Virus genome (UHGV): UHGV-0344409
DNA length: 15,727 nucleotides
DNA from: a virus
Reading direction: 5' to 3' (one strand)
The notes under the pieces were generated by a model. The model was not told the origin of the DNA, ran no database searches, and saw only the letters and a list, made by a program, of their open reading frames with translations. Below are positions 6,677 to 15,095 of this stretch, one piece after another (within the stretch, counting starts at the first letter, position 1; each line of letters begins with the position of its first letter). Made by a program: the position numbers and the translations under genes.

Positions 6677-7351
6677 TCATATAGAGGCTGAATCTGATCT
6701 TTTTTGTTCACGTCTGGCTTCCACCATTGCAGGCAGAGTGAAGGCGTAGACTAAAAACATTTCGGTAAAACTCAGGATCTGGCTTGCCTCAATTGGTGTG
6801 AAAACTTCATCTGTATGAACTGCTTTATTGGCATCAATTCGTACAATATGAGCCCATTCCTTCATCTGTTCAGTGATCAGGCCTTTTTTGTAAATCATCT
6901 GAATACGTTGCGACAGCGATTCTTTTCCTGCTTCATCGCCGAGCAGTTTTTTCGTGGAGATATCGAGGACTCTGCGACAAAGAATAACCACTGTGTCGTA
7001 CCGCCTCCTCTGTAAATCCTCTTTTGCCTCAACAAAAGTACGGTCTGCAACCGGGGGTGTATATTCTGGTGCGGTAATTTTTTTGACCACAGGATAGATC
7101 TTGCGGAAACGGTACTGGCTATTTCCTGAAATCAGAATATCGAGGTCTTTTTTCTGGCTTTCCGCCATGGGACCGTGATAGTGGTCTGATGGGATTTCAA
7201 CAATAGCAACACCTCCTCGATGACAACTTCTGCATACAAAAGCGACGTTAAAAAAAGGTGTTTTTTCAATTTGTTTTTCGGCAAATGCCTCAATAACAGC
7301 TCGCTCTTTTAAACAGTGCGGGCATGTGATATCAAAGGAGACTAAACCCAT
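6677..7351 (-). CDS. Zn-ribbon plus DUF4145-like domain protein (224 aa); candidate defence/abortive-infection cargo
   Basis: ORF track 6677..7423 trimmed to the ATG at 7351, with GAGGAA 5 nt upstream; N-terminal CPHC...CRSC pair; C-terminal LGDEAGKESLSQRIQMIYKKGLITEQMKEWAHIVRIDANKAVH...FLVYAF fits the DUF4145 pattern as recalled; opposite strand to flanking phage genes. Confidence 0.6.
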   Translation of the reverse strand: MGLVSFDITCPHCLKERAVIEAFAEKQIEKTPFFNVAFVCRSCHRGGVAIVEIPSDHYHGPMAESQKKDLDILISGNSQYRFRKIYPVVKKITAPEYTPPVADRTFVEAKEDLQRRRYDTVVILCRRVLDISTKKLLGDEAGKESLSQRIQMIYKKGLITEQMKEWAHIVRIDANKAVHTDEVFTPIEASQILSFTEMFLVYAFTLPAMVEARREQKRSDSASI

Positions 7352-7595
7352 GGATATTCCTCGCGAAATTAAAGAAATTAACGAAATCATTGAGGTTACT
7401 GATCGCCCCGAGTTTACCCTCATGCGTCGTTATGAAACAGGAACCGACGAACAAAAATACATCATGGTTGCAGCATTGGCTGTGATGGCGATAGAAAGGG
7501 AGCGAAGGGAAAAGGACGTAATGGTTATTCCTGAGAGAAATGATTCACCGGATTTGAGATGGCAGGAGCCGGAGTGGGATGTGGTAATCCGGTGA
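7350..7595 (+). CDS. hypothetical protein (81 aa); start overlaps the DUF4145-like gene start on the other strand
   Basis: ATG at 7350 with AGGAG 9 nt upstream (7336-7340); charged, non-repetitive sequence; lies antisense to the 5' extension of the minus ORF. Confidence 0.35.
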   Translation: MDIPREIKEINEIIEVTDRPEFTLMRRYETGTDEQKYIMVAALAVMAIERERREKDVMVIPERNDSPDLRWQEPEWDVVIR

Positions 7596-7649
7596 TTGAT
7601 ATTTCTCTGGGGTAAAGCGCCGCCAGAATGACGGCGCGGTAGTGGAGAG

Positions 7650-7958
7650 TTAAACGAAGCGGATCTGGAGTTTTTTCCCTGTAGCACGGGCGAATTTTTT
7701 CAGTGTGGCAAATGATGGGCCGCTTGTACCTGATGCAAGATTGCTTTCCATTCTGGTTATCGCAGTCGCTTTTGTTCCCATACGTTCAGCAACTTCAGCC
7801 TGGGTTAAGCCAGCTTCTTTTCGTGCTGCCAGCATTTCATCAAGTAGTGCGAATTCATCGGCGATGGCGTCGTATTCTGCTTTTACTGCGGGGTTAGACA
7901 ACATTTTTTCTACCATTTCATCGTGTGTCATGGTAGGTGGGGTACGTTTACCAGTCAT
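7650..7958 (-). CDS. HigA-like antitoxin (XRE-family HTH)
   Basis: 102 aa; strong AAGGAGG 6 nt upstream of the ATG at 7958; HTH LTQAEVAERMGTKATAITRME; start overlaps the upstream toxin gene by 11 nt. Confidence 0.75.
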   Translation of the reverse strand: MTGKRTPPTMTHDEMVEKMLSNPAVKAEYDAIADEFALLDEMLAARKEAGLTQAEVAERMGTKATAITRMESNLASGTSGPSFATLKKFARATGKKLQIRFV

Positions 7959-8277
7959 GCTTAACCTCCTTCATTCTGGTTTCAGCTTTTCTAAGCTCGG
8001 CAGGTGGAGTTTTTTGCGTTTTCTTTACAAAGCTATGCAACATAATGATTCGCTTTCCTTTTAGCGTGCAGTAAAAAACACGCCCTATGCCTTCCGAGCC
8101 CTTAAGGCGGATTTCAAACAAACCGTCGCCAAATGCCTCTGTATGCGGGGAACCAAGATTAGCTCCGTAAATACGCATTTTCTCCGTGTACCGAATGTAC
8201 CGGGCTTGTAAGGTCTCAGGAAGAGAAAGGATCTCAGCTTCAACCTCGTCACTGTAGTATTCGATAATGTAGTTCAT
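7948..8277 (-). CDS. HigB/RelE-family toxin (Gp49-like), toxin-first operon
   Basis: 109 aa from the ATG at 8277 (MNYIIEYYSDEVEAEILSLPE...RIIMLHSFVKKTQKTPPAEL), typical of HigB-like toxins; followed by the overlapping HTH antitoxin; candidate promoter TTGTCG-N17-TATATA on the minus strand (8329..8301). Confidence 0.7.
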   Translation of the reverse strand: MNYIIEYYSDEVEAEILSLPETLQARYIRYTEKMRIYGANLGSPHTEAFGDGLFEIRLKGSEGIGRVFYCTLKGKRIIMLHSFVKKTQKTPPAELRKAETRMKEVKHDW

Positions 8278-8300
8278 GAGAGTAAACATAACAAATTTGT

Positions 8301-8349
8301 TATATACATTCAAGGTATGTTGACGACAACACATATCCGGGATTATATT
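8301..8349. promoter_or_regulatory. back-to-back divergent sigma70-like promoters with overlapping -35 elements
   Basis: Plus strand: TTGACG (8320-8325), 17-18 nt spacer, TTATAT/TATATT (8343-8349). Minus strand: TTGTCG (revcomp of 8324-8329), 17 nt spacer, TATATA (8301-8306). Confidence 0.4.
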
Positions 8350-8411
8350 CTTCGCACGCCAGCAAAATCTGGCGTCGGGATTTGCACCCCGGATATTCAA
8401 CCGCGACAGAC

Positions 8412-8433
8412 ACACGCCGCGAGCGTGTTTTTT
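8412..8433 (+). terminator. intrinsic terminator-like hairpin in the leader upstream of the ORF6N gene
   Basis: ACACGC-cgcga-GCGTGT followed by TTTTT (8429-8433); about 75 nt downstream of the plus-strand promoter and 165 nt upstream of the ATG at 8598. Confidence 0.4.
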
Positions 8434-8597
8434 GTTGTCGTAAGCACACGCACATCTGAATTATGGTGGGGCGTATGGGGGAGCCGAAAGGCTCGCCGGT
8501 TGGTTGATCCGGTAGTGCAAACCCTGTACGTCTCACCACCCAAAGATTTGCACCTGACGGTGGTGATAGTTAAATTCATCAACCAGAGGGCGTTGTC

Positions 8598-9299
8598 ATG
8601 GCGACTCAAATTTCCGTTGAAACTCTTTCCCCAATTGCCTACAACCAGATCCCCGTAATTACTACAGAATTATTGGCGCAATTGTATGGCACTGAAACAG
8701 TCAATATAAAAATGAATTTTTCCCGTAACTCTGCGCGATTTGTACAGGGAAAACATTTCTTTAAGTTGGAAGGGAATGAACTACGTGAGTTTAAGCACAG
8801 ACTATCTTTAAGCGAGTCTGTTAGCCGCGAGGTAACAGAAAGTTACTCTGTGAAAATCGCCCGCAATGTTCGCTCCCTCATCCTCTGGACAGAACGCGGC
8901 GCAGCCCGTCACGCAAAAATGCTCGAAACCGATCAGGCGTGGGAAGTGTTCGAAAAACTGGAAGACTGCTATTTCAGCCAGGGAAAAACAGCACCAACCG
9001 AACAGCAGCCGCAGATTCAGCCACAATTCACAGCCGAGGAAATCATCCTCCTTTGCTACATGCAACTCTGGATGGAAAAAGCCCAGGACCTTAGCAAGCA
9101 GCTGTACCCCATAATGAAAGAGCTGAACTCCTCATACACGAACAAGCTGTATGACATTGCGTTTGAGACCATCTACATGGTGACGAAGAACAGAGACGCG
9201 CTACTAAGGGAGGTAACACGTCTCGACATGTCAAGTTCCGTTATCCAGCGGGCCATGCCAATGCTGAAAAGCCTGCGGGCAAGACAATTTGAATTCTGA
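8598..9299 (+). CDS. ORF6N-domain antirepressor-like protein
   Basis: 233 aa; AGAGGG RBS; N-terminal PVITTELLAQLYGTETVNIKMNFSRNSARFVQGKHFFKLEGNELREFK and ...WEVFEKLEDCYF fit the ORF6N (antirepressor N-terminal) pattern as recalled. Confidence 0.7.
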   Translation: MATQISVETLSPIAYNQIPVITTELLAQLYGTETVNIKMNFSRNSARFVQGKHFFKLEGNELREFKHRLSLSESVSREVTESYSVKIARNVRSLILWTERGAARHAKMLETDQAWEVFEKLEDCYFSQGKTAPTEQQPQIQPQFTAEEIILLCYMQLWMEKAQDLSKQLYPIMKELNSSYTNKLYDIAFETIYMVTKNRDALLREVTRLDMSSSVIQRAMPMLKSLRARQFEF

Positions 9300-12181: not shown

Positions 12182-12399
12182 CTCACAATTCCACAGCTTG
12201 ATGATTGTCTGGCTGCCGGAGAATTTGTTAAAAATTGCATCGCGTGGTGAATCCCCCTCAGCGGCGGGGCATCTGGCAAAGTGTATGATCCAGCGAACAT
12301 GCAAATTCAGTAGCCAGGCTGAATTTACCGGGAGGCACCTGGCACCATGCGACAGACAGAAATTAGGCTATACTTCAGCCCCTCTCCGGAGGGGCTTTT
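12182..12399 (+). repeat. structured non-coding repeat unit, copy A (candidate sRNA), ending in an intrinsic terminator
   Basis: Ordered conserved blocks shared with copy B: CTCACAATTC, GATTGTCTGG, TTTGTTAAAAA, GGTGAATCCCCCT, GCGGnGGGGCAT, CACCGGGAGGCACC, CACCATGC. Hairpin AAATTCAG-tagccagg-CTGAATTT (12303-12326); terminator GCCCCTC-tccg-GAGGGGC-TTTT (12378-12399). Confidence 0.6.
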
Positions 12400-12589
12400 C
12401 TGTGCAGGATGTGTCACAGTTTCCTGAATTCTGAGTACTGTCCTGTTACTCAGGGTGCTATATTTTCTGACGTGATGAAAGTCTGCCGGAAGGCGGAACG
12501 TATCGGAAATGACCCAGTAGAGAAAACGTTGACTCAGATACCGATGCTGAGTTACCGGGAAACCGGCATCACATGACCGCTATCCTTCC

Positions 12590-12650: not shown

Positions 12651-12882
12651 CTCACAATTCAGGCTGGCGATTATTGTCTGGCCAGCGGGAAGTTTGTTAA
12701 AAAAATATGGCATGGTGAATCCCCCTGTGCGGAGGGGCATATCAGCGACAGGTGTTTGGTCACACCCCTTATCCTTTCTGGTGCGGGTTCAGGTGCTGAT
12801 ACTGAACTCACCGGGAGGCACCCTGCACCATGCATGAACGGTACATAGCGCTACTCTCCAGCCCCTCTCCGGAGGGGCTTTC
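12651..12882 (+). repeat. structured non-coding repeat unit, copy B (candidate sRNA), ending in an intrinsic terminator
   Basis: Same block order as copy A; hairpin GGTTCAG-gtgctgata-CTGAACT (12786-12808) carries a compensatory A-T to G-C change relative to copy A; terminator GCCCCTC-tccg-GAGGGGC-TTTC (12861-12882). Confidence 0.6.
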
Positions 12883-12891
12883 TTGTTGGAT

Positions 12892-12921: not shown

Positions 12922-13121
12922 GGCAAGGAATAAACAACAAAACGTGAAGTGATCAATTTTCAGCTGGCGAATAATACCTGATAGTAATCACTCTGCGCAA
13001 CTGTATGGTCTTTTTCGTATTGCGGGCTGTAGTCATCCTCCTGTTTCTGAACCCTTGTCCATGACTGACGTCAGCCCGCACCTTATCTTGATTGCATACA
13101 CTATCCCTGCCGGGAGGAATA

Positions 13122-15095
13122 ATGGCATTTAAACACTATGACGTGGTCAGGGCATCATCGCCGTCAGACCTCGCAGGAAAACTGACGCAAAAACTGAAGG
13201 AAGGCTGGCAACCCTATGGTAGTCCGATTATCTCAAACGCGGGTTATGGTGCTGAATTTATCCAGGCTATAGTCGCTGAAGGGGATATGACCTCTCCGGT
13301 AGTTTCACCGGGGGGAGATGGTACCCGGACTGTTGTTGTTGAACCAGAATATTACTTTGTCATTGCGCTGGCCGGACAGTCAAACGGCATGGCGTATGGT
13401 GAAGGCCTGCCGCTGCCGGAGACATATGACCGTCCGGACCCGCGTATTAAACAGCTGGCGCGTCGCAGTACGGTGACACCGGGTGGTGCGGCCTGTGCAT
13501 ATAACGACATCATTCCGGCGGACCACTGCCTGCATGATGTGCAGGATTTGAGCCGTTTTTCTCATCCGAAAGCCAGCGCAGAGCAGTATGGGTGTGTCGG
13601 ACAGGGATTGCATATTGCCAAAAAGCTGTTGCCCTTTATGCCGGAAAATGCGGGTATTTTGTTAGTGCCGTGCTGTCGTGGTGGCTCTGCGTTTACAGCC
13701 GGTGCTGACGGAACGTTCAGTGAAAGTTCAGGAGCGTCGGATAAATCTGAACGATGGGGCGTTGATAAGCCGTTGTATAAAGACCTGCTGACACGCACTC
13801 AGGCCGCGCTGAAGGCAAACCCCAAAAACATACTGCTTTGTGTTGTCTGGATGCAGGGCGAGTTTGATTTAAAACAGGGAGCGTACGCCAGTCAGCCCGC
13901 CATGTTTGATGCCATGGTGGAAAAATACCGTTCTGACCTGGCGGGAGTATCCGGTCAGTGCGCTGGTGCTTCTCCTTCTCTGGTGCCCTGGATTTGTGGT
14001 GACACGACGTACTACTGGAAGGAGACGTATTCAGCGCAATACGATGCCGTCTATGGCGCATACAAAACCAAAGCCGGTAAAAATATCTTCTTTGTGCCGT
14101 TTATGATGGATGACAATGGTCAGAAAGTCGGGACCAATGAACCGTCAGAAGACCCGGATATTCCGGCTATCGGGTATTATGGTTCCGGTGGACGAACGGA
14201 TGCGAAGAGCTGGACAACATCCGATCGTAAAACCCACTTTGGTTCATGGGCGCGTCGCGGAATTATTTCCGACCGTCTGGCAACAGCCATTCTTCTGCAT
14301 GTGGGCAGAGTGGCAGATTTTGTTTCCGGGAAAGTGACAAAAGCCGCGGTTTCTTCAGGCGGAGGCGTATCGCAACCAGCACAGGAGAGTGGCGATACTC
14401 AGCCTGAATCCGTTGTCCCGACAAAGATACAGTCAGTGCTGGCTTATGATGCGAATGCGGAAAATGCCGATCTGGCTTCGCAGGGCTGGACGCTGACAGA
14501 TGTCAAAAACACGCTGGTCAGTGACAGTGGTTCAGGTAAAAAAGCCCTTCGTCTTGAAAAACCAGAAAATGGTCTTGCACAGAAAAAGACCTGGAAAGTA
14601 TCGCACGCAATTGATGCCGGTAAGGGGAAGGAGCTGTTCGATAACGGCGGTGAAATCACGCTGCGCTTTAAAATCCCCGATGATGTATCTCTCAATGCTT
14701 CTGCAAATCAATATTCTGCGGGTATTTACTGGCGCGGTAGTGGATGGCCGGGAGCGGAATCAGAGGAGGGTTATATTGCGGCCTTCTATCTGCAGACTGA
14801 TAAAACAAACATCAATGTGATGTATCATGCAAACACCACATCACAGCGGCTTGGTAGTTATGGTCCGTTCGATCACGACTGGCACACGCTGACTTTCCGC
14901 TTCCCGGGTGGTGGCTCGCTGAACGTCACGCCGGTGCTTGATAATGCAGCAGGAAAACCGTTTACGCTGACCAGATGGACGAATGCAGCCTTTGAGGCCA
15001 ACGCGCTGGCAATTACGGATATTACCGGAAATGCGGCAACTTACCCTGTGCTGATTGAAAGTCTTACTGTTGGTGTGAATGCCGTAGCAGCATAA
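13122..15095 (+). CDS. nanS-p: NanS-p-like prophage sialate 9-O-acetylesterase (DUF1737 N-terminus plus SGNH/SASA esterase domain)
   Basis: 657 aa from the ATG at 13122 with GGGAGG 4 nt upstream (track starts at the TTG at 13092); N-terminal MAFKHYDVVRASSPSDLAGKLTQKLKEGWQPYGSPI; GQSN motif in IALAGQSNGMAYGEG; sits where Stx phages carry nanS-p downstream of stx. Confidence 0.8.
   Translation: MAFKHYDVVRASSPSDLAGKLTQKLKEGWQPYGSPIISNAGYGAEFIQAIVAEGDMTSPVVSPGGDGTRTVVVEPEYYFVIALAGQSNGMAYGEGLPLPETYDRPDPRIKQLARRSTVTPGGAACAYNDIIPADHCLHDVQDLSRFSHPKASAEQYGCVGQGLHIAKKLLPFMPENAGILLVPCCRGGSAFTAGADGTFSESSGASDKSERWGVDKPLYKDLLTRTQAALKANPKNILLCVVWMQGEFDLKQGAYASQPAMFDAMVEKYRSDLAGVSGQCAGASPSLVPWICGDTTYYWKETYSAQYDAVYGAYKTKAGKNIFFVPFMMDDNGQKVGTNEPSEDPDIPAIGYYGSGGRTDAKSWTTSDRKTHFGSWARRGIISDRLATAILLHVGRVADFVSGKVTKAAVSSGGGVSQPAQESGDTQPESVVPTKIQSVLAYDANAENADLASQGWTLTDVKNTLVSDSGSGKKALRLEKPENGLAQKKTWKVSHAIDAGKGKELFDNGGEITLRFKIPDDVSLNASANQYSAGIYWRGSGWPGAESEEGYIAAFYLQTDKTNINVMYHANTTSQRLGSYGPFDHDWHTLTFRFPGGGSLNVTPVLDNAAGKPFTLTRWTNAAFEANALAITDITGNAATYPVLIESLTVGVNAVAA

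What the first reader, a model, noticed from the sequence alone, without database searches (positions are those of the whole stretch)
6677..7351. Opposite-strand Zn-ribbon plus DUF4145-like gene inserted between the replication module and the nin region
The gene is antisense to all flanking phage genes, a hallmark of moron cargo. Its C-terminal half fits the DUF4145 pattern, a domain that recurs in restriction and abortive-infection contexts, and its N-terminus has a CPHC...CRSC zinc-ribbon-like pair. Together with the adjacent HigBA-like pair on the same strand, this forms a candidate defence island.
Basis: partly seen in the sequence, partly recalled or inferred. Interest (0 to 1): 0.68.

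Follow-up and report, generated by a model that had tools for sequence, protein, structure and literature searches.

The report
Prophage zinc-domain HEPN RNase, RAZR-like
A real 224-codon gene carried backwards in a lambda-like E. coli prophage encodes a four-cysteine domain fused to a DUF4145/HEPN ribonuclease domain, the same layout as the recently solved anti-phage protein RAZR, so it is most likely an untested relative with a different sensor domain.

Summary
Window 6677-7351 (minus strand) is a real 224-aa gene with a good ribosome-binding site. Residues 118-197 match Pfam DUF4145 above its cut-off. The four cysteines (CPHC...CRSC) are invariant in 31 homologues and about 90% conserved in 116 cluster representatives.

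The relation to RAZR is distant:
- HEPN domains share 24% identity (hhalign 93.8%).
- The N-terminal domains share only the CPHC knuckle.
- RAZR's oligomerisation residues are absent.
- The PADLOC PD-T7-4 model scores only E=0.002.

The family is large (214 clusters at E<=1e-30). In all eight examined contexts it sits in temperate phages; in the seven prophage contexts it runs antisense to its neighbours in accessory-gene ("moron") slots, and in P2-like phage Cartapus it lies in the P2 defence hotspot.

The neighbouring toxin-antitoxin pair is real but is an independently swapped cassette.

Verdict: a probable phage-triggered defence RNase, a new variant of a known kind, with no experimental test. 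Moderate interest.

The parts
6677..7351 (-). Complete CDS (224 aa plus stop) of the Cys4-domain / DUF4145(HEPN) protein
   Evidence: ORF and translation. Same CDS annotated in RefSeq as 'DUF4145 domain-containing protein' WP_032144013.1. phrog_1305 E=1.3e-63. AF2 model mean pLDDT 88.8.
7094..7351 (-). N-terminal Cys4 domain, residues 1-86. Cys10/Cys13 (CPHC, 7313-7324) and Cys40/Cys43 (CRSC, 7223-7234). Presumed sensor.
7055..7093 (-). Linker, residues 87-99 (YP-x7-AP-x3-P) joining the Cys4 domain to the HEPN domain
   Evidence: P87, P95 and P99 are invariant in 31 homologues. The linker aligns with the conserved RAZR linker IPAAGNVELPNPDMP in BLASTP and HMMER alignments. The RAZR linker is needed for its function (PMC13017515).
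6716..7054 (-). DUF4145 / HEPN domain, residues 100-212, with the putative catalytic R171 (6839-6841), N175 and H179 (6815-6817)
7359..7362 (-). Shine-Dalgarno GAGG, 7 nt upstream of the ATG at 7351
   Evidence: Read directly from the sequence.
7350..7595 (+). 81-aa ORF (phrog_8371, no Pfam match). Its ATG overlaps the target's ATG by 2 nt (CCATGG). It travels with the target in E. coli cassettes but is not a conserved partner.
   Evidence: phrog_8371 E=6.8e-56, full length. No Pfam or NCBIfam match. Present beside the target. Absent beside homologues. Retained where the DUF4145 gene is replaced.
7617..7637 (.). GC-rich hairpin (GCGCCG / 9-nt loop / CGGCGC) at the junction between the toxin-antitoxin cassette and the DUF4145 cassette. 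Possible terminator of the toxin-antitoxin operon.
   Evidence: Read directly from the sequence. Near-identity between the two cassette alleles begins at this hairpin. The consensus terminator scan did not call it. Function untested.
7650..7958 (-). HTH_3 (XRE-type) antitoxin, 102 aa. Neighbouring but separable cassette.
   Evidence: PF01381 E=3.6e-11. phrog_1373 E=2.7e-36.
7948..8277 (-). Gp49 / RelE-HigB-type toxin, 109 aa. Neighbouring but separable cassette.
   Evidence: PF05973 E=4.6e-27. phrog_2523 E=2.6e-42. RefSeq name 'type II toxin-antitoxin system RelE/ParE family toxin'.
8288..8303 (.). Perfect 16-nt palindrome ATAACAAATTTGTTAT, 11 nt upstream of the toxin start. Likely operator for the toxin-antitoxin pair.
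   Evidence: Read directly from the sequence. The operator role is an inference from the usual autoregulation of type II toxin-antitoxin systems.

Best explanation
The gene is accessory cargo (a moron) of a lambda-like, Stx-phage-related prophage. It encodes a single-protein, phage-triggered abortive-infection ribonuclease.

Proposed mechanism:
1. The protein is made in the lysogen and stays inactive.
2. When another phage infects, the variable N-terminal Cys4 domain binds a phage protein.
3. Binding brings the conserved DUF4145/HEPN domains into an active dimer or higher oligomer.
4. The composite R171/H179 site then cuts RNA, which stops translation and phage production.

What is shown: the gene, its domains, the conserved motifs, the HEPN fold, homology of the HEPN domain to RAZR, and the prophage accessory-slot context.

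What is inferred: zinc binding, RNase activity, a phage protein as trigger, and defence itself.

Whether activation needs assembly around a ring-shaped phage protein, as in RAZR, is open. I rate that specific step at about 0.25.
For: - Architecture and size match RAZR: a Cys4 domain plus DUF4145, 224 aa against 219 aa.
- R171-x3-N175-x3-H179 is invariant. It aligns with RAZR R146/H154, which are required for RAZR defence.
- Profile-profile comparison with the RAZR family gives probability 93.8%, E=1.8e-7.
- 64 of 116 family representatives match the PADLOC PD-T7-4 model, best E=1.8e-11.
- As in RAZR, the N-terminal domain is the most variable part and the HEPN domain the most conserved.
- Context: all eight examined family members lie in temperate phages. 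Seven are antisense to both neighbours. Four of those, from three genera plus an unassigned metagenome contig, lie in the same slot between the replication genes and ninB. Others lie beside int/xis, between the lysis genes and the terminase, in a Paraburkholderia prophage early region, or (Cartapus) in the P2 cos-portal hotspot.
- The gene is rare and variable: 37 of 5,426 E. coli genomes, while its flanks occur in about 1,900.
- Two 71%-identical alleles are swapped inside an otherwise identical cassette.
Against: - No experiment exists for this subfamily.
- The window protein scores only E=0.0022 (15.5 bits) against the PD-T7-4 model and E=0.11 against the RAZR sequence 9y9c by profile search.
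- The N-terminal domain shows no detectable homology to the RAZR zinc-finger domain beyond the CPHC knuckle (hhalign probability 30% over 7 columns). It has no zinc-ribbon or RAZR fold match.
- RAZR oligomerisation residues D179, D180 and R184 are replaced by V-Y-A-F-T-L-P.
- The target carries about 30 extra residues between the Cys4 site and the linker.
- No convincing sigma-70 promoter was found upstream, so expression in the lysogen is not shown.
- HEPN domains also occur in non-defence roles.
Confidence: 0.6

Rival explanations
1. The three minus-strand genes (Gp49 toxin, HTH antitoxin, DUF4145 protein) act together as one defence system or operon.
For: All three are on the same strand. 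In every E. coli and Shigella example a toxin-antitoxin pair lies upstream of the DUF4145 gene. No strong promoter of its own was found for the DUF4145 gene, so read-through from the toxin-antitoxin promoter is possible.
Against: The neighbouring pair belongs to four different families in different prophages: Gp49/HTH, HigB PF05015/HigA, RelE-like, and a ParD-type pair with an orphan HigA. Homologues in Enterobacter, Citrobacter, Yersinia, Atlantibacter and Paraburkholderia prophages have no toxin-antitoxin neighbour. Stx2a phages carry this pair without the DUF4145 gene. A hairpin and 300 nt separate the two units.
Confidence: 0.1
2. The protein is a selfish addiction or stress-response RNase toxin that stabilises the prophage or causes dormancy, without sensing phages.
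For: HEPN domains are common toxins of HEPN-MNT toxin-antitoxin systems. The closest fold matches include such toxins.
Against: No MNT or other conserved partner gene lies beside family members. A variable N-terminal domain joined to a conserved effector is the pattern of a sensor-effector protein. RAZR, the closest characterised relative, is not toxic alone.
Confidence: 0.1
3. The protein serves the phage itself, for example in host RNA takeover, anti-defence or regulation of the lytic cycle. A related view treats it as a zinc-finger DNA-binding regulator, following the PHROG label 'DNA binding protein'.
For: phrog_1305 and one RefSeq phage record call it a 'DNA binding protein'. It lies in the early region.
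Against: It is antisense to the early-right operon, so it would be opposed rather than driven by lytic transcription. It occupies different accessory slots in different phages and is absent from most relatives. The catalytic-type R/N/H residues are invariant, which a purely DNA-binding role would not require. The 'DNA binding' label has no supporting domain match here.
Confidence: 0.08
4. The gene is a decaying or non-functional remnant with no current role.
For: One genome has it interrupted by an IS3 element.
Against: 36 of 37 E. coli copies are full length with at least 97% identity. The diverged segment between alleles shows dN/dS of about 0.26, with dS of about 1. Motifs are conserved across 116 representatives.
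Confidence: 0.03

Closest known systems
RAZR (ring-activated zinc-finger RNase; formerly PD-T7-4), E. coli UMB1727; PDB 9Y9C/9Y6U; Zhang et al., Nature 2026 (PMC13017515); discovered in Vassallo et al. 2022 (PMC9519451)
   Same: - Single protein of about 220 aa.
- N-terminal Cys4 domain whose first knuckle is CPHC in both proteins.
- Proline-rich linker.
- C-terminal DUF4145/HEPN domain with R-x3-N-x3-H, where R171/H179 align with R146/H154.
- Variable N-terminal domain and conserved HEPN domain.

   Different: - Only 24% identity, and only over the linker plus HEPN domain.
- N-terminal domains are not alignable beyond the knuckle.
- The target has about 30 extra residues, including a helix at 61-68.
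- RAZR dimer-dimer residues D179, D180 and R184 are not conserved.
- The PD-T7-4 HMM hit is weak, E=0.0022.
- No phenotype, trigger or structure is known for the target.
DS-38 (WP_001313577.1), a validated HEPN plus zinc-finger defence protein from DefensePredictor (PMC13092281 and its bioRxiv version)
   Same: A single-protein E. coli defence combining a HEPN nuclease with zinc-finger modules. Its authors note that it differs from PD-T7-4 in its zinc-finger part.
   Different: Opposite domain order: HEPN at the N-terminus and multiple zinc fingers at the C-terminus. It is 366 aa and its sequence is unrelated in layout to the target. The target sequence is not in that paper's tables as held (several are truncated).
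HepS of the Salmonella Gifsy-1 prophage (PDB 9oik, HEPN protein bound to the lambda J tail tip)
   Same: A prophage-encoded HEPN protein of similar size (218 aa) solved bound to a structural protein of another phage. This is the same concept of a prophage competition element (description line only).
Other DUF4145-containing systems: BxaP (BREX-associated; PMC10799925) and Ishtar1 (anti-plasmid; bioRxiv 10.64898/2026.07.06.735840); DUF4145 as a HEPN family (Anantharaman et al. 2013, PMC3710099)
   Same: They use the same Pfam domain as the effector. The 2013 survey already lists zinc-ribbon fusions and dsDNA-virus members of DUF4145.
   Different: In BxaP and Ishtar1 the DUF4145 domain is N-terminal and fused to HEAT-like or other C-terminal domains. 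Neither has a Cys4 domain.

Membership tests
Pfam DUF4145 (PF13643), HEPN superfamily | Match to the family HMM above the gathering score | tested here: met
   36.9 bits against a cut-off of 23.1, E=3.9e-9, residues 118-197.
Pfam DUF4145 (PF13643), HEPN superfamily | All-alpha HEPN fold | tested here: met
Pfam DUF4145 (PF13643), HEPN superfamily | Conserved Arg...His catalytic motif | tested here: met
   R171-I-D-A-N-K-A-V-H179. R171, N175 and H179 are invariant in 31 sequences and at least 90% conserved in 116 sequences. The spacing is R-x7-H as in RAZR, not the canonical R-x4-6-H.
RAZR / PD-T7-4 | Significant match to the PD-T7-4 family model (PADLOC PDLC04109) | tested here: inconclusive
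   The window protein gives E=0.0022, 15.5 bits, HEPN part only. 64 of 116 family representatives match at E<=0.01, best 1.8e-11. The family borders PD-T7-4, but this member would probably not be called by the model.
RAZR / PD-T7-4 | HEPN domain homologous to that of RAZR, with catalytic R146/H154 equivalents | tested here: met
   BLASTP gives 24% identity over 141 aa, E=3e-5. hhalign gives probability 93.8%, E=1.8e-7. R171/H179 are aligned with R146/H154.
RAZR / PD-T7-4 | N-terminal Cys4 zinc-ribbon domain (ZFD) homologous to the RAZR sensor domain | tested here: not met
RAZR / PD-T7-4 | Conserved linker between the zinc-finger domain and the HEPN domain | tested here: met
   YPVVKKITAPEYTP aligns with IPAAGNVELPNPDMP. 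P87, P95 and P99 are invariant in the target family, and P66 and P79 in the RAZR family.
RAZR / PD-T7-4 | Dimer-dimer oligomerisation residues (D179, D180, R184; V21) | tested here: not met
   The aligned segment reads FLVYAFTLP instead of IIVDDRITRP. The residues required in RAZR are described.
RAZR / PD-T7-4 | Activation by assembly around phage ring proteins, nonspecific ssRNA cleavage, and an abortive-infection defence phenotype | not testable with these tools
   This needs phage challenge, escape mutants, co-expression toxicity tests, RNase assays and cryo-EM.
Type II toxin-antitoxin pair (neighbouring cassette, RelE/HigB-type) | Small toxin gene with a RelE-fold family match, overlapping a small HTH antitoxin gene, with an upstream palindromic operator | tested here: met
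   PF05973 E=4.6e-27 and PF01381 E=3.6e-11. The genes overlap by 11 nt (7948-7958). A 16-nt palindrome lies at 8288-8303. Activity was not tested.

The most novel reading that the evidence does not exclude
This gene stands for a large, unnamed family of prophage-borne defence RNases: at least 214 clusters at 50% identity, found in Enterobacterales and Burkholderiales phages. A DUF4145/HEPN effector of the RAZR type would be coupled to a different, roughly 86-residue Cys4 beta-sheet sensor domain. That sensor would recognise another class of phage protein and might activate through a different assembly geometry. The consistently antisense placement would let lytic transcription shut the gene off, so the prophage does not trigger its own defence when induced.
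Probability: 0.3. Interest if true: 0.6.

Novelty: new variant of a known kind. Interest (0 to 1): 0.42.

Why it matters
RAZR showed that a small zinc-finger/HEPN protein can sense infection by assembling around ring-shaped phage proteins. If this sister family also defends, three things follow:

- The DUF4145 effector would prove to be re-used with unrelated Cys4 sensor domains. That gives a natural test of which features of RAZR activation are general: ring geometry, linker, and higher-order assembly.
- A defence gene that current defence-finding models barely detect would be added, and it sits in Stx-type and other lambdoid prophages of E. coli and Shigella. This bears on competition between prophages and on phage therapy host range.
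- It raises a concrete question: how does a prophage that carries such a sensor avoid triggering it with its own portal or recombinase when induced?

Tried and rejected
- DS-38 identity. I suspected the gene might be DS-38, the validated HEPN plus zinc-finger system of DefensePredictor. It is not: DS-38 is WP_001313577.1, 366 aa, with the opposite domain order. The target sequence is absent from the supplements as held, but several of those tables are truncated.
- The 81-aa divergent ORF as partner or antidote. Rejected as a conserved partner. It is absent next to homologues in other genera and persists where the DUF4145 gene is replaced.
- Promoter search upstream of the gene. The consensus scan and my own relaxed scan found only weak candidates.
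- Brenes & Laub 2025 (Cell Host Microbe, PMID 40409266). The PhiR-named phages in the closest records (PhiR5_2, PhiR12_3) resemble the phage names used by that laboratory, so the paper may describe them. It is not held, so I could not check whether this gene was tested there.
- Positive selection. The two E. coli alleles differ through a recombined block with saturated synonymous sites (dS about 1.05) and dN/dS of about 0.26. This is evidence of allele swapping, not of positive selection.
- Retrieving RAZR zinc-finger domains. The third protein search recovered only a handful of intact ones, so the RAZR N-terminal profile has just 6 sequences and the negative hhalign result is weak.

Full report
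**1. The observation**

The minus strand carries an ORF ending at 6677. Its first ATG is at 7423 and a second in-frame ATG is at 7351. The 7351 start is the real one for three reasons:
- GAGG lies 7 nt upstream.
- All homologues begin MG(L/I)LS.
- RefSeq annotates exactly this 675-bp CDS as 'DUF4145 domain-containing protein'.

Pfam DUF4145 matches residues 118-197 at E=3.9e-9, above the gathering score. The CPHC (10-13) and CRSC (40-43) pairs exist. Their four cysteines are invariant in 31 homologues and at least 90% conserved in 116 cluster representatives that share only 24-52% identity with the query.

The window is the early-right region of a lambdoid, Stx-phage-like prophage of E. coli. 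It is 97.9% identical to phage PhiR5_2 and 98.8% identical to a prophage of strain G1/2. The gene order is:
- cI, cro, cII, O, a DnaC-like gene, DUF1627 and DUF977 on the + strand;
- the target on the minus strand;
- an 81-aa ORF on the + strand;
- an HTH antitoxin and a Gp49/RelE-type toxin on the minus strand;
- then isrK, C4 RNA, the antirepressor gene, ninB and further nin genes on the + strand.

So the gene is antisense to the phage operons on both sides. It shares its strand with the toxin-antitoxin pair.

**2. What the protein is**

An AlphaFold2 model built on 31 homologues has a mean pLDDT of 88.8. It shows three parts:
- an N-terminal beta-sheet domain (strands 4-8, 18-27, 33-40, 46-52 and 81-86, helix 61-68) that carries the four Cys;
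- a proline-rich linker (residues 87-99);
- a helical C-terminal domain.

R171, D173, N175 and H179 are invariant. The N-terminal region, residues 21-86, is the most variable part, and the HEPN domain is the most conserved.

**3. The closest characterised relative**

A full-text search for DUF4145 led to Zhang et al., Nature 2026 (PMC13017515). That paper renames the defence system PD-T7-4 as RAZR. Its main findings are:
- RAZR is a 219-aa protein with an N-terminal Cys4 zinc ribbon and a C-terminal DUF4145/HEPN domain.
- R146 and H154 are essential for defence.
- The protein is harmless alone.
- It is activated when 24 copies assemble around ring-shaped phage proteins: an Erf-like recombinase or a portal.
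- Once active it cuts ssRNA nonspecifically.
- The zinc-finger domain sets phage specificity.

I rebuilt the RAZR sequence from two database fragments. Its length and residue numbering agree with the PDB chain and with R146/H154.

Comparison of the target with RAZR gives these results:
- 24% identity over 141 residues covering the linker and HEPN domain, with R171/H179 aligned to R146/H154.
- Family profiles align at 93.8% probability, E=1.8e-7, again over the HEPN domain only.
- The target family profile reaches the PDB entry only at E=0.11.
- The PADLOC PD-T7-4 model scores the target at E=0.0022.
- 64 of 116 family representatives match that model, best E=1.8e-11.

The target family is therefore a sister group of RAZR that shares the effector domain.

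**4. Where it departs from RAZR**

- The two N-terminal domains share the CPHC first knuckle and similar Cys spacing (x26 against x29). A profile-profile comparison aligns only those seven columns, at 30% probability. This negative is weak, because only six intact RAZR zinc-finger domains could be collected.
- The target has about 30 extra residues between the second knuckle and the linker.
- The residues that hold RAZR dimers together (D179, D180, R184) are replaced by an invariant hydrophobic YxFTLP segment.

I therefore do not file the gene as a RAZR orthologue. It is a variant of the same design.

I also checked DS-38, another validated E. coli HEPN plus zinc-finger defence. It is a different protein with the reverse domain order.

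**5. Comparative context**

The gene is present in only 37 of 5,426 complete E. coli genomes. It is always chromosomal and always at least 97% identical. Its flanking genes occur in about 1,900 genomes. Other prophages carry unrelated cargo after DUF977, and in one Stx1c phage a + strand ORF replaces it.

An exhaustive HMM search finds 214 representatives at E<=1e-30. Of the 150 listed, nearly all are 200-235 aa and most are matched over almost the full length.

I examined eight contexts, and all are temperate phages:
- the same replication-to-ninB slot in E. coli Stx phages, Yersinia, and an Atlantibacter-type metagenome contig;
- beside int/xis in Enterobacter;
- between the lysis genes and the small terminase subunit in Citrobacter;
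- a Paraburkholderia prophage early region;
- the cos-portal hotspot of P2-like phage Cartapus, with 26% identity over the full length. This position matches the P2 hotspot described in PMC9519451.

In the seven prophage cases the gene is antisense to both neighbours.

Two E. coli alleles (71% identity) sit in an otherwise near-identical cassette. Codons 12-185 have dS of about 1.05 and dN/dS of about 0.26, while the flanks and both gene ends are 98-100% identical. This indicates allele replacement by recombination under purifying selection.

**6. The 'island'**

The toxin-antitoxin pair is real and has a perfect 16-nt palindrome just upstream. However, the DUF4145 cassette lies beside four different toxin-antitoxin families in different E. 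coli prophages. In other genera it has none. Stx2a phages carry this pair without the DUF4145 gene.

The two units are separate cassettes in one hotspot. Co-transcription from the toxin-antitoxin promoter cannot be excluded, because I found no convincing promoter directly upstream of the target.

**7. Mechanism and verdict**

The best-supported reading is a prophage-expressed, phage-triggered HEPN ribonuclease that aborts infection, with the variable Cys4 domain as the sensor (confidence about 0.6). Ring-templated assembly as in RAZR is possible but unsupported for this subfamily (about 0.25).

Rival readings are less likely, for the reasons given with each:
- a joint three-gene system;
- an addiction toxin;
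- a phage-serving or DNA-binding role;
- a decaying remnant.

Nothing here has been tested experimentally. I could not read Brenes & Laub 2025, which may describe the PhiR-named phages and could already contain a test.

Novelty: a new variant of a known kind. Interest: moderate. The finding is not surprising now that RAZR is published, but it gives a clean and easily testable contrast to it.

Noticed in passing
window 8356-8433 (+) and 8459-8543 (+): Rfam gathering-level hits to the isrK Hfq-binding sRNA (75.4 bits) and the C4 antisense RNA (74.4 bits), directly upstream of the ORF6N/P22AR antirepressor gene (8598-9299). A sigma-70-like promoter (8320-8349) and a terminator-like hairpin (8412-8428) bracket isrK. 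This looks like an immI-type control region for the antirepressor gene.
   Followed up: partly
window 12212-12405 and 12681-12890 (+): Two copies of the sRNA family STnc100 (138.7 and 129.9 bits) lie in a gene-poor stretch upstream of the SASA/NanS-p-type esterase gene (13092-15095). A related Stx phage contig (L008) has a Shiga-toxin A (RIP) gene after its antiterminator Q gene, whereas no toxin gene appears in the RefSeq annotation of the near-identical prophage.
   Followed up: no
window 8288-8303: A perfect 16-nt palindrome ATAACAAATTTGTTAT lies 11 nt upstream of the Gp49-type toxin start codon. It is probably the operator bound by the HTH antitoxin.
   Followed up: no
window 6677-7351 compared with L008 6001-6675: Mosaic divergence between two E. 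coli alleles of the target. Codons 1-11 are identical and codons 186-224 are nearly so (dS 0.08); the flanks are near-identical. Codons 12-185 have dS of about 1.05 (71% aa identity overall). One allele has CPSC instead of CPHC in the first knuckle.
   Followed up: yes
window 7350-7595 (+): An 81-aa ORF of unknown function (phrog_8371). Its start codon overlaps the target's start codon by 2 nt on the opposite strand (CCATGG). It stays in place in phage phiSTEC1589-Stx1c, where the DUF4145 gene is replaced by a + strand 167-aa ORF (L023 2770-3270).
   Followed up: partly
L018 and L019 9490-10410: Yersinia prophages that carry a family member in the replication-to-nin slot also carry a gene with a BstA_C domain next to the repressor gene. 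From my own knowledge, BstA is a prophage abortive-infection defence protein. One prophage would then carry cargo at two accessory slots.
   Followed up: no
L024 162-860 (Escherichia phage Cartapus, P2-like): A 232-aa family member (26% identity over the full length) sits between cos and the portal gene, which is the P2 defence hotspot. At the position of the catalytic Arg it has Lys (CVKDDGNDGAH).
   Followed up: partly
NZ_CP145707.1 (hits H44 and H87): In E. coli S1-CAM-02-A the target gene is interrupted by an IS3-family insertion. This is the only disrupted copy among 37 genomes.
   Followed up: no
(RAZR family proteins in the protein collection): Most database entries for RAZR relatives are 146-169 aa. 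They start inside or after the zinc-finger domain, for example MHVSVCLCCSEE... or directly at MIIP. Many RAZR-family genes therefore appear to be annotated with truncated N-termini, or they truly lack the first knuckle. This limits any profile of the RAZR sensor domain.
   Followed up: no
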